Assembly: GCA_012839845.1 (NCBI GenBank)
Contig: DUMM01000118.1
Location: 1-57,305 of the forward strand
Length of the DNA stretch: 57,305 nt
Source: Bacillota bacterium
GTDB lineage: Bacteria; Bacillota; Limnochordia; DTU087
Direction: 5' to 3'
The notes under the pieces were generated by a model, which was not told the DNA's origin, did no database searches, and saw only the letters and a program-made list of their open reading frames with translations. Below, piece after piece: positions 147 through 56,717 of this stretch; the first letter of the stretch is position 1, and each line of letters opens with the position of its first letter. The position numbers and the translations under genes are program-made.

Positions 147-175
147 TTGACAATTGTAGCTACCCGTGTTATATT
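147..175 (+). promoter_or_regulatory. Sigma-A type promoter with extended -10
   Basis: TTGACA at 147-152, a 17-nt spacer, TG at 167-168, and TATATT at 170-175. Confidence 0.6.
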
Positions 176-264
176 ATAACTGCAAGCATAATGTATACAG
201 AATACACGAGTGGAACGCATGGGTATAGACGTAGGCAGTCGGTTATTCTGAAAGGGGTGATCCC

Positions 265-435
265 TTGATAATCGCTTTCGGAAACCGGGAGATTACCATC
301 AAAGTTCGCCAGCAGCCGCAGCCGGAAATTGCGGAGAGGGTCTACCGTCAAATCCAAAGAGAGAAGCAAATTGAGCGCGAGCGGGATGCCGCCTATGTCC
401 GTTTGCTGTTCGGCCAGGGAGTACATTTGAACTAG
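265..435 (+). CDS. Small hypothetical protein, 56 aa (MIIAFGNREITIKVRQQPQPEIAERVYRQIQREKQIERERDAAYVRLLFGQGVHLN). It is below the ORF-track length cutoff.
   Basis: TTG start 5 nt after AAAGGGGTGA (251-260) and TAG stop at 433-435. It lies between a strong promoter (147-175) and a strong terminator (455-504). I recognise no family. Confidence 0.5.
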   Translation: MIIAFGNREITIKVRQQPQPEIAERVYRQIQREKQIERERDAAYVRLLFGQGVHLN

Positions 436-454
436 CCGCCAAGACGAAAAAGAG

Positions 455-504
455 AACTGCGATGCTCTACCCCCTTGGGTAGTAGGCATCGCAGTTTGTC
501 TTTT
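455..504. terminator. Bidirectional rho-independent terminator
   Basis: Perfect 11-bp stem AACTGCGATGC (455-465) / GCATCGCAGTT (486-496), plus an inner CTACCC/GGGTAG pairing. TGTCTTTT follows on the plus strand and CTCTTTTTCGTCTT on the minus strand. It sits between convergent genes. Confidence 0.8.
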
Positions 505-572: not shown

Positions 573-2183
573 CTAGTTCACAAAACCTAGAATCAATGCC
601 AGCACCGCAGCAATGGTGGCGATGTTAGCCGCGCTCTTCAGGCTTTGATTCTGCTTTTCGGCGTGAGCTTTATAACTGTTGAACTCGTCCCTCAACTCTT
701 GCAACTGGCGTTCCAGCCGCTGCTCCCGCATCAAAGCGGCATTAAGCTGGGCAGAAGACTGGGCCATTACCCGATCATCGACTGCGGCCAATGTAGTCTC
801 CGCTTCGTTGATCCGCTCCTGGAGCACGAAGACCGCTTCCTGCAGCTCTGCGACGTGATCCCGCAAATCGGCGAGATCTTTACTGTCAGCTGCCGCGCCT
901 TGCTGGAGGAGGTTTGTCCGCTTATCCAGAGCTGCGATCTTCTGCGATATGTTGGTCAGATCCGTCTGAACCGCCTCGAGACTTCTTACCAAATCTTGAC
1001 GGAGGTTGCTGACATCCTTCATCAACTGTCCGTCAGCGGAAGCCATGGCCTCTCCCTGTTTTTGGACCTGTTCCTTGAGTGCCAGCAGGTCCTGAGCCAG
1101 TGAAGCAGTCTCGTCGGTTCGAGTCTGCCTCTCCTGCGCAGCTGCCTGCTTCAACTGGCTGAGCTCCTCGGCAAGCTGGGCTTCCCTCTCCAAGCTCTTC
1201 TCCTGCCAGCTGGCCAATCCTTCTTCGACTGCGGAAAGCCGCTGTGCAACATCGGACAATCCCTCTTGTACTCTGTTGATCTCAGCTGCCAGCTCGGCAT
1301 CGCTTTCTTGCATCGCTTGCTGCAGGAGGCTCAAAGCTGCATCCCGCTCTGCGAAACTGCTCGCCACCTTTACACCTAAAGCCTCCTCCAAAGCCACCAG
1401 TGAGTCACTATGGAGAGCAAGCATCCGGGAGTGTTCATCCAGCTTTGCCTCTGCAGCCATAACGGCAGCATCGGTATCGGCCAGCGCTGCCGCCTGCTTG
1501 GCAACCTCATCTTCTAATCTTTGAATTCTGAGGCCTTGGTCGGCGGTCTGCCGGCCCAGTTGTGCATCAGCAGCATCCAACCTCTGAGCCGTATCGGCTA
1601 CCTGCTGCTGCAGGGCAGCAATCTCAGCTAAGATAGCAGCCGCTTGTTCCTGAATAGAGGTGCGGATAGCCGCGTCCTCCTGCTCCATCGTATCAATGAC
1701 CTTTGTCACGGTCTCATCTATCACTTGGACCCGACGCTGTGTCTCATCAACAGCAGCCGACAGCTGCTCTCTTTGGTTGTACCAGCGCACAAGTTCATCC
1801 CTAAACTCCGTGGATAAAGTCCGCAAAAGCTGGAGATCTTCCTGGGTTACACCCAGCCGTCCTTTCTCAATCTCAACCAGCAAGCGCCCGACTACGGAAG
1901 CCAATGTATACCTGTCGACGGGCCGCTGACCCTGAAAAGTCCCATCGCTGTACAGGGCAAGGTAGCCCTCCTGGACCAATTTCTGCACACCTTCATAGGC
2001 CCAATGGTCTTTAGGTACATCGCTGATGGGCTGCGCAGTATCTTGGGCTAAAGCCGAGCCCACCAGGCTTCCCAACATCACCAGCATGACCAGCACTGAA
2101 ATTCCTGCTCTCCGTACTCTCCTGAGCTCCATCTGTTCCCGCCCCCTGTCAGTCTTGTTTGCTCCTCGAGTTGTCATCGGCAC
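573..2183 (-). CDS. SLH-domain / long coiled-coil / C-terminal TM-anchor protein (Omp-alpha-like envelope tether)
   Basis: Signal peptide (ISVLVMLVMLGSLVGSALAQD). A single SLH motif (DVPKDHWAYEGVQKLVQEGYLALYSDGTFQGQRPVDRYTLASVV). About 400 aa of Q/E/A/L-rich heptad-like sequence. A hydrophobic C-terminus (ANIATIAAVLALILGFVN). Start is GTG at 2183, or ATG at 2177 or 2132. Confidence 0.8.
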   Translation of the reverse strand: MPMTTRGANKTDRGREQMELRRVRRAGISVLVMLVMLGSLVGSALAQDTAQPISDVPKDHWAYEGVQKLVQEGYLALYSDGTFQGQRPVDRYTLASVVGRLLVEIEKGRLGVTQEDLQLLRTLSTEFRDELVRWYNQREQLSAAVDETQRRVQVIDETVTKVIDTMEQEDAAIRTSIQEQAAAILAEIAALQQQVADTAQRLDAADAQLGRQTADQGLRIQRLEDEVAKQAAALADTDAAVMAAEAKLDEHSRMLALHSDSLVALEEALGVKVASSFAERDAALSLLQQAMQESDAELAAEINRVQEGLSDVAQRLSAVEEGLASWQEKSLEREAQLAEELSQLKQAAAQERQTRTDETASLAQDLLALKEQVQKQGEAMASADGQLMKDVSNLRQDLVRSLEAVQTDLTNISQKIAALDKRTNLLQQGAAADSKDLADLRDHVAELQEAVFVLQERINEAETTLAAVDDRVMAQSSAQLNAALMREQRLERQLQELRDEFNSYKAHAEKQNQSLKSAANIATIAAVLALILGFVN

Positions 2184-2189
2184 CCTTAC

Positions 2190-4223
2190 CTATCTGGTAA
2201 TGGTCACGGGTAACTCCATGGGTCCCAATTCGATCACCTGACCATTAGTGGTGACCAGCTTAGTCGCTGCCAGCTGAACCGAACCGGTACCTTCAGCAAG
2301 CGTCAAGAAACGAATTGAACATAGGTTGCCGGTTAATCGACCAGGTCCCAGCTGCGAAAGGCCTTGCAGTTTAACCCAAACTGTCCCCTGCACCTGCTGC
2401 ACATCTACCTCCATGGTAGCAGCATCCTTCACAGCGGCCAAAGGTGCGAGGGCTTCGCCCCGCTCTACTCCCAGCCGACCTCCCACTACTCGCAGCAGGT
2501 CTGCCGGAAACTTCAGGAAGAACTCTGCTGCTTCGATGTTCTTCAAGTTATAACCTTTAACAGCGATTTTTGCAGGTTCCCCGACCGTTGCGGGACTGGC
2601 CCCTTCCATGACAAGCCTGATCATCTGCGGCAGCTGCGGTATGTTGATGAATTCATTGACAATCACCGGTTCGGTGGCGCCGGATTCGACTATGACGGAA
2701 TACGGCAGACTATCGCTGGCCACATCAGTCGGAACTAGGAACCACTGAACCACGACGGACTCGCCGGGCCCTAAATCCCCGCTGAGCTTTGTCCGCCCCT
2801 CACCGGGGGCTAGCTGAAGTCCTAAGGGAGCCTGCCATTGAGCGTGAACCCACGGAGCATCCATCTCACCCACATTGGTAATGGTAGCCCGGACTGCAAA
2901 AGGCACAGGCTGCAGGCTTCCATCTTCGATCAAGAGGCGAGGCGGTGCGGAGACTTTCACCTGCAGCTCCGCCGGTTTGGCAATCTTTACCTGCCGCCGC
3001 ACTCGGTTCGGCTCGCTGTTGGCAGCCTCAACCCTGACCTCATATGAGATCTCGCCCGTAACCTCTTTGGCTACCTCTACCTGCCAGGCCACCTGCACCG
3101 ACCTACCTACATCCAGGTTGCCGAGGCTGCTGGTGGGCTCCTGGGCAGAGACGAGGGTTACCCCCTTAGGCAGTTGAATGGAGATCACGACATCCCTGGC
3201 CTCACCTTCCCCGGTGTTCTCGAGATAGGCGACGATTGGGAACCGTGTAGGCGCATCGGGAGCGTGGGACACCACAGCAGGTGAAGTAACTCCCAAGGAC
3301 AACTTTCCTGGGGCGATGGTTATGCCGCCGAGTCCATAGTAGGTGACCCAGGTAACACTTTCACCGGGTTCCAAGGTGACCGGGTTCCAAAACATGGCAA
3401 TTGCCGAATCCAGCTCAAACTCACCTTTCCGCAAAAACACGCGGCCGGGTTCAAAATCAAAATCCCAGATGCTTTCCGCTAATACTCCCCAGTTGGTGAA
3501 GTACACCCGATCAGGGGGCGTTACCCCCGGGCCCCGCAAAGTCCCTTGGGACATAACCTGCGGATCCGCAAGGGAATCGAAGGCCTGCCAAAACTCAGGT
3601 ATTGCCTCTCCGCTGAAGAAAGTATCGGTTGTTATGGCCTGCTGTTCTACCCTAAAGGGGGCGCCATCGTTGGCACCCAGCATTGTGTCCAGCATCAGCC
3701 GCATCGATACCCTATGGGAGACGGAGTCTTCATTTGTCAAGGTGTAGGCAATGCGAGCTGTGTCCTGCAGACCCGTGGTGCTGCTTCGGGTAAAGCTGAG
3801 TATTTGCTCAACCTTCACTGGTCCCAGTTTGTATACCGTGCTGATGGCATTCCCCTGGATGATTTCTGGCCCTGAGATCCGCTCGCCAAAAGGTCCCTGT
3901 CTGCCGGCAGAGGTGCGGGTAGGACCGCCAAAAACGTAACTTGCACCATCCACTTGAATAGTAGTGTAAGAGGTCCATGGGTTTGCCATGCCGTATACCA
4001 AAGGCTTGTTTTCATCGCCTATTCTGTCGGGGTCTCCGCCGGTGGTACTGACAGAAAACCGGCCGGTATTCTCCTCGCCTGCATTGACGATGATGGAGAT
4101 ATAATCATTGGCTATGATGATGTTGTTGTTGCCAATGCTGTCTTCAACTTCTGCATAGGCATTCGCCGTACCACAGGCAATCAACATCCCCACGACCAGG
4201 GTAACTGCCAACCAGCGCCGCAT
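2190..4223 (-). CDS. Predicted lipoprotein or secreted multidomain surface protein: unknown ~300-aa N-terminal domain, two CARDB/NEW3-like Ig-fold modules, and a C-terminal cohesin-like domain
   Basis: Signal peptide with lipobox LIAC (MRRWLAVTLVVGMLIACG). CARDB-like stretches (AYLENTGEGEARDVVISIQLP..., ATITNVGEMDAPWVHAQW...). The C-terminal ~140 aa resemble cohesin (FFLKFPADLLRVVGG...GNLCSIRFLTLAEGTGSV). Domain names come from pattern memory only. Confidence 0.6.
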   Translation of the reverse strand: MRRWLAVTLVVGMLIACGTANAYAEVEDSIGNNNIIIANDYISIIVNAGEENTGRFSVSTTGGDPDRIGDENKPLVYGMANPWTSYTTIQVDGASYVFGGPTRTSAGRQGPFGERISGPEIIQGNAISTVYKLGPVKVEQILSFTRSSTTGLQDTARIAYTLTNEDSVSHRVSMRLMLDTMLGANDGAPFRVEQQAITTDTFFSGEAIPEFWQAFDSLADPQVMSQGTLRGPGVTPPDRVYFTNWGVLAESIWDFDFEPGRVFLRKGEFELDSAIAMFWNPVTLEPGESVTWVTYYGLGGITIAPGKLSLGVTSPAVVSHAPDAPTRFPIVAYLENTGEGEARDVVISIQLPKGVTLVSAQEPTSSLGNLDVGRSVQVAWQVEVAKEVTGEISYEVRVEAANSEPNRVRRQVKIAKPAELQVKVSAPPRLLIEDGSLQPVPFAVRATITNVGEMDAPWVHAQWQAPLGLQLAPGEGRTKLSGDLGPGESVVVQWFLVPTDVASDSLPYSVIVESGATEPVIVNEFINIPQLPQMIRLVMEGASPATVGEPAKIAVKGYNLKNIEAAEFFLKFPADLLRVVGGRLGVERGEALAPLAAVKDAATMEVDVQQVQGTVWVKLQGLSQLGPGRLTGNLCSIRFLTLAEGTGSVQLAATKLVTTNGQVIELGPMELPVTITR

Positions 4224-4280
4224 TAATCACCAGCCCCCTAACTGTACCGTCGATGACTTTGGCGGTTCATCGCTGAACTC

Positions 4281-5189
4281 TCACTCATTTCGCACATACC
4301 GAACGCCGTCGTACATAATCGATACCCTGAAGTCCGGCGGGCCGCTAAAAGAAACCGTTATTGACAGGATATAATCTTCCAGCAGCGGCTCCATGCGCCA
4401 TCCGTTTTGGATGGTCAACCGCGCGACTTCATCTAAACTTGCTGTTCCAGAAGACTGAATGATGTCAATGCGGGTTGCTCTAGTAGACCCTTTCGGCACA
4501 TACGCCTCCAGTTTAACGGTACCTGCCAGACCTTCGTTAATGGCATTCTTGGGGTACTGAATCCGCCCACCGCCTGACACTAAAGTGCTTGCTGCCGGTA
4601 GTGGCGGCAGCGGCGGCGGCTGCGGCGTTCTTTCTTCCTCCAAGCCGCTCTCTGCCGAAGTATTCGAACTGCTTGTCTCACCGGCGTCTGCAGAATTACC
4701 TGCGGCCATGACAGCTTCTTGACCGTGTTCACTGGTGAGGACTTGCTCACCGTTCCTATCCGGCTGGGCCAAAGCCTGCTCGCTGGTTGCGGGTTGCTGC
4801 TCCGGCACAATTCTAGTATCGGCAGCTTTCACATCCTCCTGCGGAGGCGGCGTGGGATCCTGAGGCTTTGGTGCAGCTTCTGGTTGAGTCTGGGTTACCT
4901 GAGTCTTAGCTGTCTCAACAGGCTCCGGTTCTTGTTTCGCTGGCGTGGCGGTCTGGCGGTTGGGTGTCTGCTGCTGGGGCTGCTGTCTGGTCACCTGAGT
5001 TCTGGCAGGCTGCTGCACCTCTATGGGTACAACAGAAATAATCCCGCCGCCCGGACCGGCAAAAAGACCAGGTCCCACCGCAAAATCCCAGCGGGGAAAG
5101 ACAAAAAACAGCATGGCGTGGAGAATTAGTGAGATGAAAACATAAGCCCCAAAGGACCGGTCCAAGTCATCGCCGTTGTACACTGCCAC
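4281..5189 (-). CDS. tonB: TonB-family energy transducer
   Basis: N-terminal TM with a conserved His (FISLILHAMLFFVF). Pro/Gln/Glu-rich spacer (QEPEPVE...PKPQDPTPPPQ, PQPPPLPPLP). C-terminal TonB_C-like domain (IQYPKNAINEGLAGTVKLEAYV...). Confidence 0.8.
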   Translation of the reverse strand: MAVYNGDDLDRSFGAYVFISLILHAMLFFVFPRWDFAVGPGLFAGPGGGIISVVPIEVQQPARTQVTRQQPQQQTPNRQTATPAKQEPEPVETAKTQVTQTQPEAAPKPQDPTPPPQEDVKAADTRIVPEQQPATSEQALAQPDRNGEQVLTSEHGQEAVMAAGNSADAGETSSSNTSAESGLEEERTPQPPPLPPLPAASTLVSGGGRIQYPKNAINEGLAGTVKLEAYVPKGSTRATRIDIIQSSGTASLDEVARLTIQNGWRMEPLLEDYILSITVSFSGPPDFRVSIMYDGVRYVRNE

Positions 5190-5246
5190 ACCACCTCCCC
5201 TCCTCCAGCTGCAGCAGTATTAATAATGATCAATGGGTTTACCAAG

Positions 5247-5657
5247 CTATCTGCCCCGCGGTTCAACTGCAAGACCAAAACGATATCCTCCCAGCTGCCG
5301 AACAACATCCATCACTTGTACTACATAGTCATAGCGAGCCTCTCGGTCGGCCTTAATGATCACAAAAAGGTCTGGCCGCTTGTCCAGGGCGCTTTTAACT
5401 TCTGACCTGAGGGTATTGGTGTTGACCTGACGCTCGCCCAAAAACATCCGCCCATCCTTGGCTATGGAGATAGTGATCTGGCTGCTGGCCTGTCTATCGT
5501 AACTAGCTGCCCTGGGCAGTTCCAAATTCAAACCTGCGGGATGGGTCTTGAAAGTAGTAGCGAGCATAAAAAATACCAAGACAGAGAAAATAATGTCAAT
5601 TAGAGGCACGATTTGAACTGTTGGTTTCTTGTTGCGACCCATTCGACGGGCTATCAT
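5247..5657 (-). CDS. exbD: ExbD/TolR family biopolymer transport protein
   Basis: 136 aa. N-terminal TM contains the conserved Asp (VPLIDIIFSVLVFFML), followed by a periplasmic-type domain. The start overlaps the exbB stop by 1 nt. Confidence 0.85.
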   Translation of the reverse strand: MIARRMGRNKKPTVQIVPLIDIIFSVLVFFMLATTFKTHPAGLNLELPRAASYDRQASSQITISIAKDGRMFLGERQVNTNTLRSEVKSALDKRPDLFVIIKADREARYDYVVQVMDVVRQLGGYRFGLAVEPRGR

Positions 5658-6271
5658 CAGACATCACCCCTGGACTCGAAGATGGCCAACAGCTCAGACG
5701 CTCGCTTGTTGATATCAACCACCAAACGGTCTATGAGTCCGGAAAGATAGGAATAGATCAACGTGCCGGGGATAGCAATAACCAGACCGGCTGCAGTAGT
5801 GATCAGGGCCTCTGCAATCCCTGCGCTCAACGCGAGGGTGTCGTCCAAGCCGCCTATCGCCGTGATTACCTGAAAACTATTGATAATACCAGTCACTGTG
5901 CCCAAGAGTCCGAGCAAGGGAGCAGCGGTGATGATTGCGTCTAGAAGCCCCAATCGGCGTTCCATCCTATAAACTTCTTCACTAGCCGCTTCCTCCAACC
6001 GCTCCCGGATAAACTGCTTATCCTTATCGTAATGGGCAATGCCCGCCGCCAGCACCGCTGCAACGGGGCCTCTCGTCTTCTTGGCTATCTGGATGGCCTC
6101 CAGGATTTTCCCCTGCTGAAGGGCCAGTTTAATATCATCCATCAAATCTTCGGTGTCAACTCGGCAGCGAAGCAGGTAGACCAGTCTTTCTAAAGAGACA
6201 GCTACCATCAGAACAGAACACAGCAGTAAAGGGATCATTACCGGGCCGCCTCGGATAATTAAGTCCAGCAT
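5657..6271 (-). CDS. exbB: MotA/TolQ/ExbB family proton channel
   Basis: Three TM segments and the family motif PLLGLLGTVTGIINSF. I chose ATG at 6271 (MLDLIIRGGPVM) because GGAGG lies 8 nt upstream. The ORF-track start is 6298. Confidence 0.85.
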   Translation of the reverse strand: MLDLIIRGGPVMIPLLLCSVLMVAVSLERLVYLLRCRVDTEDLMDDIKLALQQGKILEAIQIAKKTRGPVAAVLAAGIAHYDKDKQFIRERLEEAASEEVYRMERRLGLLDAIITAAPLLGLLGTVTGIINSFQVITAIGGLDDTLALSAGIAEALITTAAGLVIAIPGTLIYSYLSGLIDRLVVDINKRASELLAIFESRGDV

Positions 6272-6486
6272 TGTAATTACCTCCACTCCGTCCCACATTC
6301 ATTGGGTAAGACTATTCGACAATCACGTACCATATCCTTCCTTGCTGTTATCTTGAGGGAAATCCTATGATAATTTCCTCTAAGGGCCTACGCACTTCCC
6401 TGATTTTCCCCCTTTGGCATTTTCGACAGGTTGAAAGATAACTCCTGCCGCCAGAACCCCATGCAGAACAAACAGGGACACGACAC

Positions 6487-6515
6487 GAATAGGGAAATAT
6501 CCCCAGGATAAGATA
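6487..6515 (+). promoter_or_regulatory. Candidate forespore-type (sigma-F/sigma-G) promoter for the SASP-like gene
   Basis: GAATA (6487-6491), a 14-nt spacer, then GGATAAGATA (6506-6515). This loosely resembles the GNATA ... GGnnAnAnTA / CATnnTA consensus. Matched by eye only. Confidence 0.3.
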
Positions 6516-6552
6516 CCAATGAGATGGTCTTGTGCGGGAGATGGGATCTATA

Positions 6553-6783
6553 ATGGATAGGGAATTGGAAACGGTAAGGGATCGAGCGATGAACCAGCTT
6601 AAGAATGATCTGGCAAAGGAAATGGGTCTATGGCATTTGGTGCAAACCGAAGGTTGGGGGGCATTGACTGCCAAAGACTGCGGCCGCATAGGCGGCAAGA
6701 TGGCGACGAAACTCAGTCCCAACATTCTGCGCAAGATTGCGCAGAAAGCGGAATGCAGGGTGAGTAAGGAGCGGGATCTTTAG
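6553..6783 (+). CDS. Alpha/beta-type small acid-soluble spore protein-like (divergent)
   Basis: NQLKNDLAKEMGL...LTAKDCGRIGGKMATKL matches the two conserved SASP blocks (K-x-E-I-A-x-E-x-G and G-x-V-GG-x-M-x-K-R-L). ATG at 6553 follows GGGAG (6536-6540). The ORF track begins at GTG 6532. Confidence 0.55.
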   Translation: MDRELETVRDRAMNQLKNDLAKEMGLWHLVQTEGWGALTAKDCGRIGGKMATKLSPNILRKIAQKAECRVSKERDL

Positions 6784-7551: not shown

Positions 7552-8316
7552 CTATCTCATCAGTGATTCCCTCAGGAGCGCGGTAATACGTTTCTCCAAC
7601 CTTGATACCTGCCCTTGGGAAATTCCCAGTATCTCCGCTACTTGACTTTGAGTCCGCTCCTGTATAAAACGCAGGACAACAATAGCCCGGTCTCTGGGGG
7701 ACAGCCCCTCACATGCCTGTTTTAGGGCATAGTTTTCAAGCCAGGCTTCTGACTCCGGTTCCACCCCTAACCTGTCTTCTACATGGATGGCGCTTTCACT
7801 GTCTTCATGAACAATATCGTGGATGGACAGTATAGGGGCAACTGCCTCTAGGGCCTCTATCACTTCCTCCCGCTCCAAACCCAGTTCGTCTCCGATCTCC
7901 TTTGGGGTCGGCGCTCGTCCCAAACGCTGTTCCAAACTATCCCGCACTCTGATAACCGCCGCCGCCTTCTCCCGGAGAGTCCGCCCCAGCTTGATAGCTC
8001 CTTCTTCCCGAAGAAAACGGCGAATTTCACCCATGATCACCGGCACTGCATAGGTGGAGAACTGGACATTGAAAGAAAGGTCGAAATTGTCAATGGCTTT
8101 GACCAGTCCGATACAGGCTACCTGAAAGAGGTCATCAAATTCCGCTCTGCCGCTGAAGCGCTGGGCGATGGACAAGGCGAGGCGCAGGTTGGCCTCGATC
8201 AGCTGTTCCCTCGCCGCAGCGCAGCCTGCCTGAGCGGCGACCAAAAGGCTCTGGAATTCTTCGGGGGTCAAATTCGAAGCTGGAGGCAGTTGGATTTTGC
8301 CCGCAGGCTCTACCAT
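7552..8316 (-). CDS. sigF: Sporulation sigma factor sigma-F
   Basis: Sigma-70 regions 2-4 are present (DLFQVACIGLVKAIDNFD, ...QSQVAEILGISQGQVSRLEKR). It lies immediately downstream of spoIIAA-spoIIAB. Confidence 0.9.
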   Translation of the reverse strand: MVEPAGKIQLPPASNLTPEEFQSLLVAAQAGCAAAREQLIEANLRLALSIAQRFSGRAEFDDLFQVACIGLVKAIDNFDLSFNVQFSTYAVPVIMGEIRRFLREEGAIKLGRTLREKAAAVIRVRDSLEQRLGRAPTPKEIGDELGLEREEVIEALEAVAPILSIHDIVHEDSESAIHVEDRLGVEPESEAWLENYALKQACEGLSPRDRAIVVLRFIQERTQSQVAEILGISQGQVSRLEKRITALLRESLMR

Positions 8317-8328
8317 GGTGCTCTCCCC

Positions 8329-8772
8329 CTACGAATGCACTCGGGTCTGAGAAGGCGACTTGGCCATAAATACACAGGTTCCCTTACCTGGTTCCGAATC
8401 GATCACCAGTTCGTCCATATACTCCCGCACAAATACTAGACCCAGTCCCATCCGCTCTTCCGGTTCTGTTGTAAACGCCGGTTCCAGAGCCTGCTGGACG
8501 TTGGATATGCCGCGCCCCTCGTCCTTCACAGTGACTTCCAGTCGGTTGCCAGTCAGCCGGCAGATGACGGTGATCTCGCCCTCGGTACCTTTGTAGCCGT
8601 GAATCACTGCATTGGATACCGCTTCCGATACCGCAATCTTGATCTCATCCAATTCATCGAGGGTAAATTCCAGCTGTGATGCAAATAGAGCGACAGCTGT
8701 TCGGGCAAAACCGATGTTAGCGGCTTTACTGGGAAACCGCATTTCGACCATGTTTTCGATAGTTTCCATCAT
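8329..8772 (-). CDS. spoIIAB: Anti-sigma-F factor, serine kinase SpoIIAB
   Basis: HATPase_c motifs (EAVSNAVIHGY, DEGRGI, GLGLVF). 147 aa. 4-nt overlap with spoIIAA. Confidence 0.9.
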   Translation of the reverse strand: MMETIENMVEMRFPSKAANIGFARTAVALFASQLEFTLDELDEIKIAVSEAVSNAVIHGYKGTEGEITVICRLTGNRLEVTVKDEGRGISNVQQALEPAFTTEPEERMGLGLVFVREYMDELVIDSEPGKGTCVFMAKSPSQTRVHS

Positions 8773-9134
8773 CGCTTACCCCCAATCTGAGCCAGCGCCT
8801 GTTCTTCAGTATCAGCGAACTGCATGATCCGCTCCATGCCGGCCATTGTCAGCACCCTTCTCACCGGTTCCAGCGCTCTAAGGGCTATTACCTTTCCTGA
8901 GCGGGCTTGAATCTCCTTGTACCGTCCCAGCAGGACTGCAAGTCCGGAGCTATCAATGAAGCCGACTTTCTCCAAGTCCCAAATCAAGTGATTGACCTTG
9001 GCATTTGCTGCCAAGGCCGCGTCCACTCTCTCCTTAACCTCGGCTGCTGTAGCTAAATCCAACTCACCGTCTAGAGATACAATCAGCGCGTTTCTCTTTC
9101 TCCTGATCGCTATATCCACCCTGTGCCCCTCCAT
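8769..9134 (-). CDS. spoIIAA: Anti-sigma-F factor antagonist SpoIIAA (STAS domain)
   Basis: STAS motif GELDLATA...VGFIDSSGLAVLLG with the phosphorylatable Ser. It is the first gene of the spoIIA operon. Confidence 0.9.
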   Translation of the reverse strand: MEGHRVDIAIRRKRNALIVSLDGELDLATAAEVKERVDAALAANAKVNHLIWDLEKVGFIDSSGLAVLLGRYKEIQARSGKVIALRALEPVRRVLTMAGMERIMQFADTEEQALAQIGGKR

Positions 9135-29495: not shown

Positions 29496-32400
29496 TTAGA
29501 AAAGAGACAGCTGGGAGGTCTTTGGCAACCCTGCCAGTGCGCCGTAGGCTGCCAGGGTTTCGATCACCGTACGGCTGACACCGCACCTCATTCTAATATC
29601 CTCCCACGAGGTAAAGGGCCCCGCCTTTCTGCCTTCAGCCAGCATCAGTGCTGCACTTTGCCCCACACCGGGCACAATTGCCAGCGGCGGCCTGAGTTTC
29701 CCGTTCTCAATGGTGAAGCGGGTGGGATGGGACCTGTACAGGTCCACGGGGAGAAACTCTATCCCCCGCAGCATTGCCTCCATGACCAGTTCAGCCACTG
29801 TCAGGAGGTTCTTTTCCTTGGCGGTGGCACTGGCGCTTCTGGCGGAGATATCGGCGACAATCTGCTTTACATCCTGAAGACCGCCTCTGATCAGTTGAAT
29901 GTCGAAGGCATCGAGTCGGACAGAAAAATAGGCGGCGTAATACGCCAGAGGATAATGTACTTTGAAGTAAGCTATCCGGAAAGCCATGGTGACATACGCC
30001 ACAGCATGGGCCTTGGGAAAAAGATAGCTGATCCTTCTACAGGAGTCGATGTACCACTGCGGTACTCCCACTCTTTCCATGGCCTCCACGTCCTCAGGCT
30101 TTAGTCCTTTGCCCTTTCTAACCTTTTCCATAATGGCAAAGGCAGTTGCCGGCTCCATTCCCAGCTGAATGAGGTAGTTCATGATATCATCCCGGGTAGC
30201 GATGGCCTGGCTGAGATTGGCAACGCCGTTCTTGATCAAGTCTTGGGCGTTATTGGTCCACACGTTGGTACCGTGGGAGAACCCGCTGATCCGGACCAGC
30301 TCTCCGAATGACTTCGGCCGGGTTTCTTCCAGCATCTGCCTGACAAATCTTGTCCCAAACTCAGGCACACCGAGAGTACCTACAGTGGTGCCCAGGTCAT
30401 CGGGGCTGACCCCTAAGGCCTCTACGCTGGAGAAGATGCTCATGGTGGCAGGATCATCCAGTGGTATGCTTAGGACCGATACCCCAGTCATATCCTCCAA
30501 CATTCTGAGCATTGTGGGGTCGTCATGGCCGAGAATGTCCAGCTTCACCAAATTGTCGCTGATGGCGTGGTAATCAAAGTGGGTGGTAATGGTACCGCTG
30601 GCAGCATCGTTGGCAGGATACTGCACCGGCGAGAACTCATTAATGTCTCGGCCCTCCGGAACCACGATCATGCCGCCGGGATGCTGGCCGGTGGTCCGCC
30701 GTACACCGGTACAGCCTCTGACGAGGCGATTGATCTCTGCGGTTCTGGCCGTTCGGCCTTTGCTTTCCAAGTATTTGCATACAAAGCCGTAGCTGGTCTT
30801 TTCCGCGAGAGTGCCGATGGTACCCGCGCGGAACACGTGGTCCTTGCCGAAAAGCTCCTCCGTGTATCTGTGGACACAGGCCTGGTATTCCCCGGAGAAG
30901 TTGAGATCTATGTCCGGTACCTTTTCTCCGTGGAAACCCATAAAGACCTCGAAGGGGATATCAAAGCCTAGTTTTCGGTATAGGGCTCCACATTGACAGT
31001 GTTTGTCCGGCAGATCGACACCGGTTTGAACCGAACCGTCGGTGATGAACTCCACATGATGGCACTGGGGACAAACATAATGGGGCGGCAGGGGGTTAAC
31101 CTCCGTGACTCCGCAAAGGGTGGCCACCAGGGAGGACCCCACAGAACCTCGGGAACCTACCAGATAGCCGTCGCTTAGGGATTTTTGCACCAACTTGTGG
31201 GCGATGAGATACAAGACAGCAAAACCGTTGCCGACGATGGCCTTTAGTTCCTTCTCGATCCTCTCTGCCACAAGCTGAGGTAAAGGGTCTCCGTACAGCT
31301 TTCTGGCATTGGCGTAGGTCATCTCAGTGATCTGCTCCTCAGCCCCTTCGATTCTCGGAGCGTGGAGGCCGCTGGGTATGGGCCGCACCTCTTCAATCAT
31401 GTCCGCGATACTGTTCGGGGCATAGATCACCACTTCTTTGGCCGTCTCTTCGCCGAGATAATCAAATTCCGCTAGCATTTCTGCAGTAGTCCGGAAAAAC
31501 AAGGGTGCTTGCCTTTCTACATCTTCATAGCCCTGAGCGGCCAGGAGAACGCGGCGGTAGATTTCATCCCATGGGTTCAGGAAGTGGACATCGCAGGTAG
31601 CCACCACTGGTTTCCCCAGGCGCTTGCCTAGGGCAACGATGCGGCGGTTTATCTCTTTTAGGTCGTCGTACGACTGGACCTTGTCACCGATCATGAAGGC
31701 GTTGTTGGCCAAAGGCTGAATTTCCAAGTAATCGTAAAAAGCGGCTTTTTTCAGCAGCTTGTCTTCATCGATACCCTGGAGGACTGCTTGATAGACCTCC
31801 CCCGCTTCGCACGCCGAGCCGATGAACAGCCCATCCCGATATCTTTCGATCAATTGGCGGGGCAGTCTGGGCCGACGGTAGAAATACTGCAGGTGAGATA
31901 TGGATACCAGTTTGTATAGGTTGTACAGTCCCTGTTGGTTCTTAGCCAAGAGTACAATGTGGTAAGACTGAGCTTTAGGATCATCTCCGTCGACAAGATA
32001 GCCCTCAATCCCGTAAATGACCTTAATACCAGCTTTCTTGCCGGCATAGTAGGCCTCGGGAAAAGCCTGAACAACTCCATGATCCGTAATGGCTACGGCT
32101 TTGTGGCCCCAGCTTGCGGCCAGCTGAATCACTTCTTCGGTATCCACCGTCCCGTCCATAGCCGACATCTTGGTATGTAGGTGGAGTTCCACCCGCTTTT
32201 CGGGGGCCTCGTCCCGGCGGATAAACTCTGCCGGCGGCTCTTGAGTTTCTATATCATTGGGCAGGATGATGAGCTCCTGGGTGTAGCGGTCCCATTGAAC
32301 GGGCCCCCTCACCCGCAGCCACATACCAGTGCTTATTCTCTCCGCCAGCCGGGGAGCATTCTCCTCCTCGAACAACTTGAGGGTAATGGAATCCCGATAG

Positions 32401-33008
32401 TCGGTGATATCGATCATCAAAAGGCGCCGACCGCTGCGCAGCTCCCGTTCTTCCAGATTGATCACTTCCCCGGCAGTGACGAAAGAGCGCTCTTCATCAG
32501 TTATCTCAGCTATGGAACGGGGCTCATCTTTAATGGGGCGTCCCTTCAGCACGCTTTCCGAGCCTTCGAGCGCAGCATCAGCTGCTTCCGGGGAGGGACC
32601 TTCAGCCATCTGCAAGCTGGCTCGCTCCATGATGTAAGAAATATAGGTAGCTTCGTCGGCAAGCAGCAGATCATCGACAGACTGCCTTTCTGGATGGTTA
32701 TTTCCGTTGACGACAACATCAAAGGAAACGGAACGCACCCCCGGCAGCAGTTCAACCAGTTTGCGGCTCAATGAGTCCAGTTCCAAGGGGCACAGATCTT
32801 CTCCGGATGTGAGGCAGATCTTCCACTCTTGACGCTGGCAGTTGACCAAGACTTTTTCTACAACAGCTTGGGCGGCCTTTCCTTCGCAACTTACCGGAAG
32901 TTGAGCCGCCCGCAGGAAATCTGATAGGCATTGTCCCTTAACTTGGGGAGTCACCACGTATACAGTTGCGTTGCTAGCCACTTTCAGAATCCTTTCTGGT
33001 TGCAGCAA
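29496..33008 (-). CDS. polC: DNA polymerase III PolC-type alpha subunit lacking the 3'-5' exonuclease insertion
   Basis: 1170 aa. OB region (RSGRRLLMIDITDYRDSITLKLF), PHP (VELHLHTKMSAMDG, ITDHG), polymerase core (GSRGSVGSSLVA, Zn finger CPQCHH...CQCG, PDIDLNFSGEYQ), and the PolC C-terminus SQLSLF. No DEDDh block lies between IEGYLVDGDD and YHIVLLAKN. Confidence 0.9.
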   Translation of the reverse strand: MLQPERILKVASNATVYVVTPQVKGQCLSDFLRAAQLPVSCEGKAAQAVVEKVLVNCQRQEWKICLTSGEDLCPLELDSLSRKLVELLPGVRSVSFDVVVNGNNHPERQSVDDLLLADEATYISYIMERASLQMAEGPSPEAADAALEGSESVLKGRPIKDEPRSIAEITDEERSFVTAGEVINLEERELRSGRRLLMIDITDYRDSITLKLFEEENAPRLAERISTGMWLRVRGPVQWDRYTQELIILPNDIETQEPPAEFIRRDEAPEKRVELHLHTKMSAMDGTVDTEEVIQLAASWGHKAVAITDHGVVQAFPEAYYAGKKAGIKVIYGIEGYLVDGDDPKAQSYHIVLLAKNQQGLYNLYKLVSISHLQYFYRRPRLPRQLIERYRDGLFIGSACEAGEVYQAVLQGIDEDKLLKKAAFYDYLEIQPLANNAFMIGDKVQSYDDLKEINRRIVALGKRLGKPVVATCDVHFLNPWDEIYRRVLLAAQGYEDVERQAPLFFRTTAEMLAEFDYLGEETAKEVVIYAPNSIADMIEEVRPIPSGLHAPRIEGAEEQITEMTYANARKLYGDPLPQLVAERIEKELKAIVGNGFAVLYLIAHKLVQKSLSDGYLVGSRGSVGSSLVATLCGVTEVNPLPPHYVCPQCHHVEFITDGSVQTGVDLPDKHCQCGALYRKLGFDIPFEVFMGFHGEKVPDIDLNFSGEYQACVHRYTEELFGKDHVFRAGTIGTLAEKTSYGFVCKYLESKGRTARTAEINRLVRGCTGVRRTTGQHPGGMIVVPEGRDINEFSPVQYPANDAASGTITTHFDYHAISDNLVKLDILGHDDPTMLRMLEDMTGVSVLSIPLDDPATMSIFSSVEALGVSPDDLGTTVGTLGVPEFGTRFVRQMLEETRPKSFGELVRISGFSHGTNVWTNNAQDLIKNGVANLSQAIATRDDIMNYLIQLGMEPATAFAIMEKVRKGKGLKPEDVEAMERVGVPQWYIDSCRRISYLFPKAHAVAYVTMAFRIAYFKVHYPLAYYAAYFSVRLDAFDIQLIRGGLQDVKQIVADISARSASATAKEKNLLTVAELVMEAMLRGIEFLPVDLYRSHPTRFTIENGKLRPPLAIVPGVGQSAALMLAEGRKAGPFTSWEDIRMRCGVSRTVIETLAAYGALAGLPKTSQLSLF

Positions 33009-55961: not shown

Positions 55962-56717
55962 CTACTCGGACTCTGATTCCTCCGTTGCCACGGGCTCTGC
56001 GCTGCTGAGGCCCAAACGGAGGATGACAATATCAACTCTGCGGTTCCGTGCTCTGCCCTCCGGCGTGTCGTTGGTATCAATAGGCCGATACTCCCCATAT
56101 CCGGCAGCAGACAGCCTTTCAGGATCAAGGCCCTGCTCCTCAATTAGATAACGGATCACACTGGTTGCCCGTGCGGTTGAAAGTTCCCAGTTGGAGGGGA
56201 ATCGGGGTGTATTAATAGGTAGATTATCGGTATGGCCTTCTACCCGGACGTGGTTGGGCAGCGGCCGCAAGACTTCAGCGATTTTCTCCAGCACCGACAA
56301 CGTATCGGGCCGCAGGTCAGCCTTGCCCAGATCGAAAAACGCCCGTTCGGCAAATCTTATCACCAGACCCCTTTCCTCCAAGACCAAGTCCACTGTACCA
56401 GAAAGCTCTCCCATGGCAATCATACTCTGCATCTGCTCATAGACGGCCTTAATCTGGTCCAACTCCTCCCTTGGAATTGACGGCATCTCGCTGCTGATCG
56501 GAGTGGGTACCACTGACACAGTCTGGCCGCCGGGGAGCACTCCCAAAGCCCCCTGCAGTGCGATCATGAGACTTTGGAACTTCTGAGCGTCAACTGTGGA
56601 GAACGAATACAGCAAGACGAAAAAGGTCAGAAGCAGGGTAACCATGTCGCCGTAAGTCGTCAGCCAGGGCGCATCTCCTCCCTGGTCCCGCCGCCTGCGC
56701 TGGTAACGATTATACAT
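55962..56717 (-). CDS. motB: Flagellar stator protein MotB (OmpA-like C-terminal domain)
   Basis: APWLTTYGDMVTLLLTFFVLL with the conserved Asp. The C-terminal domain reads VEGHTDNLPI...SNWELSTARATSV...NRRVDI. Confidence 0.92.
   Translation of the reverse strand: MYNRYQRRRRDQGGDAPWLTTYGDMVTLLLTFFVLLYSFSTVDAQKFQSLMIALQGALGVLPGGQTVSVVPTPISSEMPSIPREELDQIKAVYEQMQSMIAMGELSGTVDLVLEERGLVIRFAERAFFDLGKADLRPDTLSVLEKIAEVLRPLPNHVRVEGHTDNLPINTPRFPSNWELSTARATSVIRYLIEEQGLDPERLSAAGYGEYRPIDTNDTPEGRARNRRVDIVILRLGLSSAEPVATEESESE

What the first reader, a model, noticed from the sequence alone, without database searches (positions are those of the whole stretch)
573..6298. TonB/ExbB/ExbD motor operon with no receptor, fused to an Omp-alpha-like tether and a cohesin-bearing lipoprotein, in a spore-former
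Seen in sequence:
- Five co-directional genes are packed tightly. exbB and exbD overlap by 1 nt, followed by gaps of 57 nt, 57 nt and 6 nt.
- The operon runs from an AT-rich intergenic region (6272-6531) to a strong bidirectional terminator (455-504).
- The gene order is ExbB, ExbD, a TonB-family protein (TM His, Pro-rich spacer, TonB_C-like end), a 677-aa lipobox protein with CARDB-like and cohesin-like modules, and an SLH/coiled-coil/C-terminal-TM protein.
- No beta-barrel TonB-dependent receptor gene is present in the window.
- rseP is followed by ispG rather than bamA, so this window gives no sign of outer-membrane biogenesis genes.

Established knowledge: ExbB-ExbD-TonB transduces proton-motive force from the cytoplasmic membrane to outer-membrane receptors in diderms. 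Related 5:2 motors (Tol, Mot, Gld, Agl, Zor) power other envelope machines.

Inference: this motor may energise a wall- or S-layer-spanning complex built from the two co-encoded surface proteins. Alternatively, the organism has an unrecognised outer layer. Either outcome would be notable for a sporulating Clostridia-like genome.
Basis: partly seen in the sequence, partly recalled or inferred. Interest (0 to 1): 0.8.

Follow-up and report, generated by a model that had tools for sequence, protein, structure and literature searches.

The report
Orphan TonB motor operon, diderm Terrabacteria
The five genes are real and form an operon kept intact in at least three bacterial phyla that have an outer membrane. 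It pairs a TonB-type proton-driven motor with two envelope proteins instead of the usual nutrient receptor, so it is probably an uncharacterised envelope machine, not a motor stranded in a single-membrane spore-former.

Summary
**Observation:** confirmed, with corrections. Five minus-strand genes encode ExbB, ExbD, a TonB-family protein, a 677-aa secreted multi-domain protein and an SLH/coiled-coil/C-terminal-TM protein. They run from a sigma-H-type promoter to a strong terminator.

**Conservation:** the gene order is kept in every related genome where the contig reaches far enough. That covers about 80 Limnochordia-like and Halanaerobiales genomes, including cultured Halothermothrix orenii and Halanaerobium praevalens. 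It also covers Margulisbacteria-like and Armatimonadota contigs.

Limnochordia and Halanaerobiales are documented two-membrane Firmicutes, and the Margulisbacteria-like contigs carry an LPS-transport gene (lptF/G). So "a motor with no outer membrane" is very probably wrong.

"no receptor" has published support. The 2009 H. orenii genome paper found no TonB-dependent receptors and suggested another function for this ExbB/ExbD/TonB set.

**Best reading:** a proton-motive-force-driven trans-envelope machine whose targets are the two co-encoded proteins. It may be a functional counterpart of Tol-Pal, whose marker Pal is characteristic of the other major diderm branch (Gracilicutes).

**Not shown:**
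- Function and protein contacts.
- Which membrane holds the C-terminal helix.
- Outer-membrane genes in this particular genome.

Literature searching mostly failed, so novelty is provisional.

The parts
6314..6338 (-). Sigma-H-type promoter, AGGATAT-N11-GTCGAAT, about 40 nt upstream of the exbB start.
   Evidence: - It is the only strict match to AGGAWWW-N11-12-RNNGAAT in the 57-kb window (0.23 expected).
- The block is invariant in 12 close relatives, even where the upstream gene differs.
- A one-mismatch version sits 64-92 nt upstream of exbB in 42 of 70 loci, including H. orenii. About 0.016 is expected per 150 nt.
- The same motif is found upstream of spoIIAA in 7 of 33 loci.
- The consensus itself is recalled from memory.
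5657..6271 (-). exbB/tolQ-like proton-channel subunit, 204 aa from ATG 6271. The longest ORF extends to 6298.
   Evidence: - Pfam MotA_ExbB, E 5e-33.
- The best NCBIfam matches are TolQ (99 bits) and ExbB (78 bits), both below their cut-offs.
- The TM3 motif E-x2-3-T-[AT] (here EALITT) is kept in 60 of 62 orthologues.
- Gene callers use the 204-aa start.
5247..5657 (-). exbD/tolR-like subunit, 136 aa. It overlaps exbB by 1 nt.
   Evidence: - Pfam ExbD, E 1e-29.
- The TM Asp (PLIDI) is kept in 51 of 55 orthologues.
4281..5189 (-). TonB-family transducer, 302 aa. It has an N-terminal TM with S-x3-H, a Pro/Gln/Glu/Thr-rich linker and a TonB_C domain with the YP motif. A short conserved C-terminal extension follows.
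   Evidence: - Pfam TonB_C, E 1e-9.
- S-x3-H is kept in 60 of 64 orthologues and YP in 56 of 64.
- Weak PDB sequence hits to TonB.
2190..4223 (-). 677-aa secreted four-domain protein.
- Signal peptide, with a lipobox in this clade only.
- Beta-supersandwich domain, residues 32-305 (nt 3309-4130).
- Ig-like domain, residues 308-415 (nt 2979-3302).
- Ig-like domain, residues 420-528 (nt 2640-2966).
- Type II cohesin-like domain, residues 534-677 (nt 2193-2624).
   Evidence: - AlphaFold2 models: pLDDT 85.5 for the whole protein; 87.5 with pTM 0.89 for the N-domain alone.
- Foldseek places the N-domain with GH94 and GH116 N-terminal domains and the YidC P1 domain. E is 3e-8 for the best hit and TM-score about 0.5-0.6.
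- The family profile matches type II cohesins, E 3e-13.
- The lipobox is not conserved.
573..2132 (-). Omp-alpha-like protein, 519 aa from ATG 2132. The longest ORF extends to GTG 2183.
- Signal peptide.
- One SLH motif (nt 1911-2030).
- A helical rod of about 400 residues.
- A C-terminal hydrophobic helix (nt 576-635).
   Evidence: - Pfam SLH, E 2e-8.
- No Pro in 410 residues, with an Ala/Leu/Gln/Glu-rich composition.
- The same architecture is seen in about 60 orthologues of 223-1447 aa and in Margulisbacteria-like contigs.
- The Armatimonadota version lacks the SLH motif.
- The start codon and RBS are read from sequence.
445..504 (-). Intrinsic terminator closing the operon.
   Evidence: An 11+6 bp GC-rich hairpin followed by UUCUCUUUUU. 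dG -39.6 kcal/mol, z -5.98, and 0 of 200 shuffles fold as well.

Best explanation
This is one operon encoding a proton-motive-force-driven trans-envelope machine of two-membrane (diderm) Terrabacteria. It is not a nutrient-uptake TonB system, and it is not a motor in a single-membrane cell.

**Shown by sequence**
- ExbB and ExbD keep the channel residues of a working 5:2 proton motor.
- The TonB-family protein keeps three features: the S-x3-H membrane anchor that couples to the motor, an extended Pro-rich linker, and a canonical TonB C-terminal domain.
- The operon always also encodes two exported proteins.
  - The first has a carbohydrate-binding-like beta-supersandwich, two Ig-like domains and a cohesin-like domain.
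  - The second has one SLH motif, a coiled-coil rod and a C-terminal membrane helix, the same layout as Thermotoga Omp-alpha.

**Inferred**
- The motor pulls on TonB.
- TonB's C-terminal domain grips the co-encoded 677-aa periplasmic protein, or the rod protein, by beta-strand pairing.
- The rod protein forms a trimer, binds the peptidoglycan layer through SLH and is fixed in a membrane by its C-terminal helix.
- Together they would couple inner membrane, wall and outer membrane in an energy-dependent way. That is the job Tol-Pal does in the other major diderm branch.
- In spore-forming Firmicutes the operon appears to be driven by a sigma-H-type promoter, which would switch it on at the transition to stationary phase and sporulation.
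For: **1. Co-conservation**
- The order ExbB-ExbD-TonB-677aa-SLH rod is kept on one strand in every locus where the contig extends far enough.
- These five are the five most conserved gene clusters in the neighbourhood.
- Median gaps between the genes are -1, 18, 17 and 17 nt.

**2. Phyletic breadth**
- Relatives of the 677-aa protein are encoded in 398 species-representative genomes.
- The full module is present in:
  - H. orenii and H. praevalens;
  - Margulisbacteria-like contigs, two of them next to lptF/G;
  - an Armatimonadota contig;
  - an Armatimonadota-like contig and a contig of unknown lineage.
- In some of these loci the genes overlap by 4 nt.

**3. No classical partner**
- There is no receptor gene in the window.
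- Mavromatis 2009 reports that no TonB-dependent receptors could be detected in H. orenii and proposes a different function (PMC2626281).
- Veillonella, by contrast, has nine classical TonB systems with receptors (PMC5491611).

**4. Motor motifs are conserved**.

**5. Fits the territory where Pal is not the marker**
- OmpM is a marker of diderm Terrabacteria and Pal of Gracilicutes (bioRxiv 10.1101/2021.05.31.446380).
- The gene order parallels tolQ-tolR-tolA-tolB-pal.
- The best NCBIfam matches are TolQ and TolR.

**6. The sigma-H-type motif is enriched upstream of exbB**.
Against: - No experiment or interaction prediction links TonB to either downstream protein.
- The fourth and fifth proteins have no homology to TolB, Pal or CpoB.
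- The TonB C-terminal domain is canonical (YP motif). It could still serve a divergent, undetected outer-membrane receptor encoded elsewhere.
- Receptor absence is documented for only one genome (H. orenii, 2009 methods) and was not tested in this genome or in Limnochordia.
- The membrane holding the C-terminal helix is unknown. A Sec-exported protein with a C-terminal helix would by default stay in the inner membrane.
- Rod length varies about seven-fold (138-1447 aa). That is awkward for a fixed-distance tether.
- The Armatimonadota rod protein lacks SLH.
- The sigma-H assignment rests on a consensus recalled from memory.
  - It is absent upstream in H. praevalens, and not detected at the threshold used in many other loci.
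  - The one-mismatch motif also scored upstream of a cheW-like cluster in 15 of 22 loci, which questions its specificity.
- Literature searches mostly timed out, so a prior description may exist.
Confidence: 0.55

Rival explanations
1. This is an ordinary TonB energy-transduction system. It powers uptake through outer-membrane receptors encoded elsewhere, possibly too divergent to recognise. The two downstream envelope genes merely share its operon.
For: - Canonical TonB_C with the YP motif, S-x3-H anchor and ExbB/ExbD motifs.
- The hosts are diderm.
- Another diderm Firmicute, Veillonella, uses classical TonB systems.
- Mavromatis 2009 left open the possibility that receptors were too divergent to detect.
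Against: - The five genes stay linked, often translationally coupled, in at least three phyla. Non-partner genes rarely stay linked that long.
- No receptor was detected in H. orenii.
- No receptor gene was seen in the 20-kb neighbourhoods examined (called genes; representatives of the conserved neighbour clusters).
Confidence: 0.2
2. This is a surface-display or anchoring system, as the database name 'cellulosome anchor protein' implies. The cohesin domain would hold dockerin-bearing enzymes or S-layer components. The SLH rod would anchor them to the wall. The motor would drive their export or assembly.
For: - A type II cohesin-like C-terminal domain.
- Pfam Cohesin hits in many homologues.
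- An SLH motif in the neighbouring gene.
- The N-domain also occurs on RHS toxins and PKD surface proteins.
Against: - No dockerin or cellulosome gene appears in any neighbourhood examined.
- The family is present in halophiles and marine Margulisbacteria.
- Most members have plain signal peptides, which implies a periplasmic location in a diderm.
- The cohesin and SLH modules are on different polypeptides, unlike anchoring scaffoldins.
Confidence: 0.1
3. This is a sporulation-specific envelope device. It would handle the outer membrane and wall at asymmetric division, engulfment or germination in spore-forming diderm Firmicutes.
For: - The sigma-H-type promoter.
- A conserved position just downstream of spoIIAA-spoIIAB-sigF in about 37 loci, and upstream of spoVA in some.
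- A SleB-like hydrolase follows the operon in Halanaerobiales.
Against: - The same module occurs in Margulisbacteria-like and Armatimonadota contigs. These phyla are not known to sporulate (general knowledge).
- It also occurs in H. praevalens, whose upstream region lacks the motif.
- Synteny with spoIIA is seen in only about half of the loci.
- This is better viewed as a regulatory overlay on the main explanation.
Confidence: 0.1

Closest known systems
TonB-ExbB-ExbD energy-transduction system (E. coli type)
   Same: - All three components are present, with family-level Pfam hits.
- The coupling motifs are present: ExbD TM Asp, ExbB TM3 Glu/Thr, TonB S-x3-H and the YP motif.
- The architecture matches: membrane anchor, Pro-rich linker, C-terminal domain.
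   Different: - No TonB-dependent receptor is in the window.
- None was detected in H. orenii, which carries the orthologous cluster.
- The system is always co-encoded with two non-receptor envelope proteins.
- TonB carries a conserved extra C-terminal segment.
Tol-Pal system (tolQ-tolR-tolA-tolB-pal-cpoB)
   Same: - The operon logic and order match: motor pair, elongated anchored transducer, beta-rich periplasmic protein, peptidoglycan-binding envelope tether, plus a coiled-coil element.
- ExbB and ExbD score best against TolQ and TolR models.
- It is found in diderm lineages where OmpM, not Pal, is the marker tether.
   Different: - The fourth and fifth proteins are not homologous to TolB, Pal or CpoB.
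- The transducer has a TonB_C domain, not TolA domain III.
- Wall binding is through SLH rather than an OmpA-like domain.
- Function is untested.
Omp-alpha of Thermotoga maritima
   Same: The fifth protein has the same layout: signal peptide, one SLH motif, a long coiled-coil rod and a C-terminal hydrophobic helix.
   Different: - Omp-alpha is not known to me to be linked to ExbBD-TonB.
- No sequence comparison with Omp-alpha was run here.
- Rod length is highly variable.
- The membrane of insertion is unknown.
OmpM (diderm Firmicutes) and SlpA (Deinococcus) outer-membrane tethers
   Same: A single SLH motif per chain followed by a coiled-coil stalk. This implies a trimer that binds modified peptidoglycan or a wall polymer.
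   Different: No beta-barrel. A single C-terminal helix takes its place.
Agl-Glt gliding machinery of Myxococcus (TolQR-like motor with TonB-like GltG/GltJ)
   Same: A precedent for a Tol/Exb-type motor that uses TonB-like proteins to push on non-receptor envelope components. This rests on my own knowledge.
   Different: The partner proteins are unrelated. There is no evidence of motility function here.
Cellulosome anchoring scaffoldins (type II cohesin plus SLH)
   Same: A type II cohesin-like domain, with an SLH-bearing neighbour.
   Different: - The cohesin and SLH modules are on separate proteins.
- There is no dockerin or cellulosome context.
- The association with a motor is constant.

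Membership tests
TonB-ExbB-ExbD system | ExbB (MotA/TolQ/ExbB family) and ExbD (ExbD/TolR family) with the conserved TM Asp | tested here: met
   - PF01618, E 5e-33, and PF02472, E 1e-29.
- Asp motif in 51 of 55 orthologues and ExbB TM3 motif in 60 of 62.
TonB-ExbB-ExbD system | TonB protein with an N-terminal S-x3-H anchor, a Pro-rich spacer and a TonB_C domain | tested here: met
   - PF03544, E 1e-9, above its cut-off.
- SLILH in the TM.
- YP motif in 56 of 64 orthologues.
TonB-ExbB-ExbD system | An outer-membrane TonB-dependent receptor (Plug plus beta-barrel with a TonB box) as the energised partner | tested here: inconclusive
   - None in the 57-kb window.
- None was seen in the related neighbourhoods examined.
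- None was detected in H. orenii according to PMC2626281.
- The rest of this genome could not be scanned.
Tol-Pal system | TolQ/TolR equivalogs | tested here: inconclusive
   The best NCBIfam matches are TolQ (98.7 bits, cut-off 221) and TolR (72.1 bits, cut-off 127.3). Both are below their cut-offs.
Tol-Pal system | TolA with domain III, TolB beta-propeller, Pal OmpA-like lipoprotein | tested here: not met
   - The transducer hits TonB_C. Its only TolA match is weak and N-terminal.
- The fourth protein is beta-sandwich domains, not a propeller.
- The fifth protein has SLH, not OmpA.
Omp-alpha-type tether | Signal peptide, SLH motif, long coiled coil and C-terminal hydrophobic helix | tested here: met
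   The architecture recurs in about 60 orthologues. No sequence comparison with Omp-alpha itself was run.
Omp-alpha-type tether | C-terminal helix inserted in the outer membrane, with the rod spanning the periplasm | not testable with these tools
   This needs fractionation or immuno-electron microscopy.
OmpM / SlpA | SLH plus coiled coil joined to a C-terminal beta-barrel porin | tested here: not met
   The protein ends in a single helix of about 20 residues. There is no barrel-length sequence.
Cohesin-dockerin anchoring scaffoldin | Cohesin domain | tested here: met
   - The family profile matches type II cohesins, E 3e-13.
- PF00963 hits many homologues.
- The window protein alone does not reach Pfam significance.
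Cohesin-dockerin anchoring scaffoldin | A dockerin-bearing partner and cellulosomal context | not tested
   - No dockerin hit in the five proteins.
- No cellulosome genes in the neighbourhoods.
- Whole genomes were not scanned.
Diderm (outer-membrane-bearing) Bacillota: Limnochordia / Halanaerobiales | Genome encodes BamA, LPS synthesis and transport, and OmpM | not testable with these tools
   - Affiliation is inferred only. The closest relatives (83% identity) are unclassified Bacillota MAGs. The next tier (about 41-51%) includes MAGs labelled Limnochordia or Limnochordales.
- The diderm status of those classes comes from the literature.

The most novel reading that the evidence does not exclude
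This five-gene operon would be the Terrabacterial counterpart of Tol-Pal. It would be an ancient proton-driven machine that dynamically couples inner membrane, peptidoglycan and outer membrane. A TonB-like arm would act on a glycan-binding/cohesin adaptor and an SLH coiled-coil tether. In spore-forming Firmicutes, sigma-H would switch it on to manage the outer membrane at asymmetric division and engulfment.
Probability: 0.25. Interest if true: 0.85.

Novelty: new variant of a known kind. Interest (0 to 1): 0.65.

Why it matters
**An open question.** Diderm Terrabacteria are marked by the tether OmpM rather than Pal. A Tol-Pal-type energy-dependent system for keeping the outer membrane in step with the wall and inner membrane has not, to my knowledge, been described for them.

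**An unexplained observation.** The 2009 H. orenii genome paper noted a TonB system with no receptors and left its function open.

**What this analysis adds.**
- That orphan motor belongs to a five-gene operon with two specific envelope partners.
- The operon is conserved in at least three phyla.
- This gives a concrete, testable candidate. Cultured hosts exist (Halothermothrix, Halanaerobium, Orenia and other Halanaerobiales).

**What would follow if it is right.**
- The repertoire of 5:2 motor machines (Ton, Tol, Mot, Gld, Agl, Zor) would gain a member.
- It would bear on how outer membranes are maintained, and lost, in the Firmicutes.

**If it is only a classical TonB system with hidden receptors,** the finding is ordinary.

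Tried and rejected
- **Foldseek with the whole 677-aa model.** Only generic multi-Ig hits (integrins, ciliary proteins). I re-modelled the N-domain alone instead.
- **Pfam and NCBIfam on the N-terminal 300 residues.** No family was found.
- **Scanning this genome, or Limnochordia genomes, for BamA, Lpx or TonB-dependent receptors.** No tool could do it. The single genome-collection scan went on neighbourhood conservation. All three word-index protein searches went on the 677-aa family.
- **Cluster-member look-ups for taxonomy.** Few names were returned, and names for window proteins are masked.
- **Neighbourhood mining for outer-membrane genes.** The flanks are housekeeping, sporulation and chemotaxis genes. 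Only the Margulisbacteria-like loci sit next to lptF/G.
- **Simple sigma-70 promoter and terminator scan.** No better than shuffled sequence, and it missed the real terminator because of the terminator's long stem-loop.
- **Global heptad periodicity test on the rod.** No global signal. Composition and the absence of proline still indicate a helical rod.
- **Literature search.** Nine full-text searches and two look-ups by DOI failed or timed out. Taib 2020 is not held. The novelty judgement therefore rests on a few papers read by PMC id.
- **Rejected: a monoderm host with an unknown outer layer.**
- **Rejected: lipoprotein as a defining trait.**
- **Rejected: OmpM membership.**


Full report
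**1. The observation**

The window carries five tightly packed minus-strand ORFs at the stated coordinates. Pfam assigns four of them clearly:
- 5657-6298: MotA_ExbB, E 5e-33.
- 5247-5657: ExbD, E 1e-29.
- 4281-5189: TonB_C, E 1e-9.
- 573-2183: an SLH motif, E 2e-8.

The 677-aa product of 2190-4223 gets only marginal DUF11/NPCBM_assoc hits and a weak CARDB hit.

NCBIfam ranks TolQ and TolR above ExbB and ExbD for the first two proteins. All these matches are below the curated cut-offs.

The stated spacing is correct except at the last junction.
- An ATG at 2132 has a good ribosome-binding site. It gives a normal signal peptide and is the start used by gene callers. The last gap is then 57 nt rather than 6.
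- Likewise exbB probably starts at 6271.

The downstream hairpin is a strong terminator: -39.6 kcal/mol, z -6.

Every ORF of 500 aa or more in the window is accounted for, and none is a TonB-dependent receptor. They are PNPase, IF2, NusA, PolC, ProS, FlhA and the two genes above.

rseP is indeed followed by ispG. This says little about an outer membrane, because diderm Firmicutes keep their outer-membrane genes in a separate cluster.

**2. Who carries it**

The window matches a JGI metagenome contig. The 677-aa protein has more than 700 relatives at E 0.001 or better. A scan of one genome per species found relatives in 398 genomes.
- The closest, at 83% identity, are unclassified Bacillota MAGs from anaerobic digesters.
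- The next tier, at about 41-51% identity, includes MAGs labelled Limnochordia or Limnochordales, and 'Peptococcaceae bacterium 1109'.
- Two low-GC loci labelled Halanaerobiales led to a second search. It found the family across cultured Halanaerobiales: Halothermothrix orenii, Halanaerobium praevalens, Orenia, Halanaerobacter, Natroniella, Sporohalobacter, Fuchsiella and others.

Limnochordia and Halanaerobiales are documented diderm Firmicutes.
- Taib 2020, as cited in PMC11456536, reported an outer-membrane gene cluster in all 46 Limnochordia genomes it examined.
- New Limnochordia isolates show an outer membrane by electron microscopy.
- Reviews list Negativicutes, Halanaerobiia and Limnochordia as the diderm classes.

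The premise of a spore-former without an outer membrane is therefore very probably wrong. I could not scan this genome for BamA or LPS genes.

**3. The five genes are one conserved unit**

A tblastn of the five window proteins against all fetched loci shows the same order on one strand wherever the contig reaches far enough. The only absences are at contig ends.
- Clustering all neighbourhood ORFs ranks these five as the five most conserved clusters.
- Median intergenic gaps are -1, 18, 17 and 17 nt.
- The module is intact in H. orenii (CP001098.1, about 1.27 Mb) and in H. praevalens.

A library-wide search with the N-terminal domain found 2603 cluster representatives at E 0.001 or better. Distant full-length members, at about 36% identity over the N-domain, belong to Candidatus Marinamargulisbacteria, Margulisiibacteriota and Armatimonadota.

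Context look-ups in those lineages again show ExbB-ExbD-TonB, then the 636-681-aa homologue, then a small exported coiled-coil protein with a C-terminal helix. Genes often overlap by 4 nt. A contig of unknown lineage has the same order with a 937-aa homologue and an SLH protein. Two of the Margulisbacteria-like loci sit next to lptF/G.

The module spans at least three phyla of diderm Terrabacteria.

**4. Anatomy**

*Motor.*
- ExbD keeps the transmembrane Asp in 51 of 55 orthologues.
- ExbB keeps the TM3 Glu/Thr motif in 60 of 62.
- TonB keeps S-x3-H in 60 of 64 and the YP motif in 56 of 64.
- TonB also has a Pro/Glu/Gln-rich linker and a conserved short C-terminal extension.

*Fourth protein.* AlphaFold2 gives four domains, with pLDDT 85.5.
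- The N-terminal 274-residue domain was modelled alone (pLDDT 87.5, pTM 0.89).
  - It is a beta-supersandwich resembling the N-terminal domains of GH94 phosphorylases and GH116, and the YidC P1 domain. E is 3e-8 for the best hit and TM-score about 0.5-0.6.
  - This is a carbohydrate-binding-like fold.
  - The same domain heads RHS toxins and PKD surface proteins elsewhere, so it is a portable extracytoplasmic module.
- Two Ig-like domains follow.
- A type II cohesin-like domain ends the protein (profile against PDB, E 3e-13).
- The lipobox Cys is present only in the window protein and its closest relative in the sample. The homologues with clear N-termini have ordinary signal peptides.
- The family is therefore a soluble exported protein. 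In a diderm that means periplasmic unless it is secreted further.

*Fifth protein.* About 60 orthologues share a signal peptide, one SLH motif (DVPxDHWAY), a proline-free helical rod and a C-terminal hydrophobic helix of about 20 residues. Zero to a few residues follow the helix.
- Total length ranges from 138 to 1447 aa.
- The Armatimonadota version lacks SLH but keeps the rod and the helix.
- This is the Omp-alpha layout.
- One SLH motif per chain implies a trimer, as in OmpM.
- Which membrane holds the helix is unknown. Omp-alpha is reported in the outer membrane, but Sec export would by default leave such a helix in the inner membrane.

**5. Is there a receptor?**

There is none in the window or in the neighbourhoods examined.

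The decisive literature point comes from Mavromatis et al. 2009. [quoted passage not shown] It concludes that these proteins may have a different function, or that the receptors are too divergent to detect (PMC2626281). That cluster matches the orthologue found.

By contrast, Veillonella (Negativicutes) has nine classical TonB systems with receptors (PMC5491611).

**6. Regulation (found in passing)**

Immediately upstream of exbB lies AGGATAT-N11-GTCGAAT. This matches the Bacillus sigma-H consensus RNAGGAWWW-N11-12-RNNGAATWW, which I recall from memory.
- It is the only strict match in the 57-kb window.
- It is invariant in 12 close relatives, even where the upstream gene differs.
- A one-mismatch version occurs 64-92 nt upstream of exbB in 42 of 70 loci, including H. 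orenii. About 0.016 is expected per 150 nt.
- By gene cluster, ExbB scores 36 of 59 and spoIIAA, a known sigma-H target, scores 7 of 33. Most other clusters score near zero. A cheW-like cluster is an unexplained exception at 15 of 22.
- H. praevalens lacks the motif.

In many Limnochordia the operon sits just downstream of spoIIAA-spoIIAB-sigF. In Halanaerobiales a SleB-like hydrolase follows it.

Margulisbacteria-like and Armatimonadota contigs also carry the module. I therefore read this as a Firmicute regulatory overlay, not the core function.

**7. Mechanism**

*Shown:*
- an intact 5:2-type motor;
- a canonical TonB-family transducer;
- two exported partners;
- one transcription-unit architecture;
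- deep co-conservation.

*Inferred:*
- The motor pulls on TonB.
- TonB's C-terminal domain engages the co-encoded periplasmic protein or the rod by strand pairing.
- The rod trimer binds the wall through SLH and is fixed in a membrane.
- The assembly couples the envelope layers in an energy-dependent way.

The gene order parallels tolQ-tolR-tolA-tolB-pal. The module also occurs in diderm Terrabacteria, where OmpM rather than Pal is the marker tether. That is why I favour a Tol-Pal-like role. However, the fourth and fifth proteins are not homologues of TolB, Pal or CpoB, so this is analogy, not membership.

*Confidence:*
- About 0.55 that the two co-encoded proteins are the motor's effectors.
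- About 0.25 for the specific Tol-Pal-like role.

*Rivals:*
- A classical TonB system with hidden receptors: 0.2.
- A cohesin-based display system: 0.1.
- A sporulation-specific device: 0.1.

**8. Novelty and limits**

The orphan TonB in H. orenii was published in 2009. I found no description of three things:
- the link to the two downstream genes;
- the distribution across Limnochordia, Halanaerobiales, Margulisbacteria-like lineages and Armatimonadota;
- the sigma-H-type promoter.

Most literature searches timed out and Taib 2020 is not held. The novelty claim is therefore provisional.

I rate it a new variant of a known kind: a Ton/Tol-type motor with new partners.

Noticed in passing
window 6314-6338 (-); also about 64-92 nt upstream of exbB in L004-L086: A sigma-H-type promoter motif (AGGAWWW-N11-12-RNNGAAT) sits upstream of exbB. 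It is the only strict match in the window. A one-mismatch version is present in 42 of 70 related loci, including H. orenii, and is absent in H. praevalens.
   Followed up: yes
window 6532-6783 (+): A small acid-soluble spore protein gene (Pfam SASP in the gene-caller table) is transcribed divergently from exbB and shares its upstream region.
   Followed up: no
window 4173-4223 (-), residues 1-17 of the 677-aa protein: The lipobox (LIAC) is present only in the window protein and its closest relative in the sample. The other homologues with clear N-termini have ordinary signal peptides. V. parvula lacks Lol and outer-membrane lipoproteins (PMC10665443). If this clade is similar, a lipidated form would stay on the inner membrane.
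   Followed up: partly
window 3309-4130 (-); proteins P0350, P0374, P0358, P0367: The Pfam-unassigned N-terminal beta-supersandwich domain has 2603 cluster representatives at E 0.001 or better. It also heads RHS-repeat toxins and PKD-rich surface proteins. It looks like an undescribed portable extracytoplasmic domain family.
   Followed up: partly
window 4281-4360 (-), C-terminal ~25 residues of the TonB-like protein: About 20-25 residues extend beyond the usual end of TonB_C. The motif is like FGEVRWL in relatives and DGVRYVRNE here. It is conserved across Limnochordia orthologues.
   Followed up: no
window 7552-9134 (-); L004 13496-15340: The module lies directly downstream of spoIIAA-spoIIAB-sigF in about 37 related loci. 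In some, for example Peptococcaceae bacterium 1109, it lies between spoIIA and spoVAC-AD-AE. In Halanaerobiales a SleB-like hydrolase follows it.
   Followed up: partly
window 55962-57305 (-): A second 5:2 motor lies at the window edge, at the start of a flagellar operon: motB (MotB_plug plus OmpA) and a motA truncated by the window end.
   Followed up: partly
window 29496-33008 (-): The PolC-like polymerase ORF is 1170 aa. Pfam finds OB, PHP, pol III alpha, finger and HHH domains, but no 3'-5' exonuclease domain at E 0.001 or better. It is also shorter than typical PolC (about 1430 aa, from memory). The upstream start may be miscalled.
   Followed up: no
window 169-489 (-): A small ORF just beyond the terminator has no Pfam hit. 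Gene callers annotate an 85-aa gene at this position in the three near-identical contigs L001-L003.
   Followed up: no
L004 15440-15946 and the orthologous cheW-like cluster: The relaxed sigma-H-like pattern also scored upstream of a cheW-like gene in 15 of 22 loci. This may be a purine-rich ribosome-binding-site artefact or a real shared promoter type.
   Followed up: no
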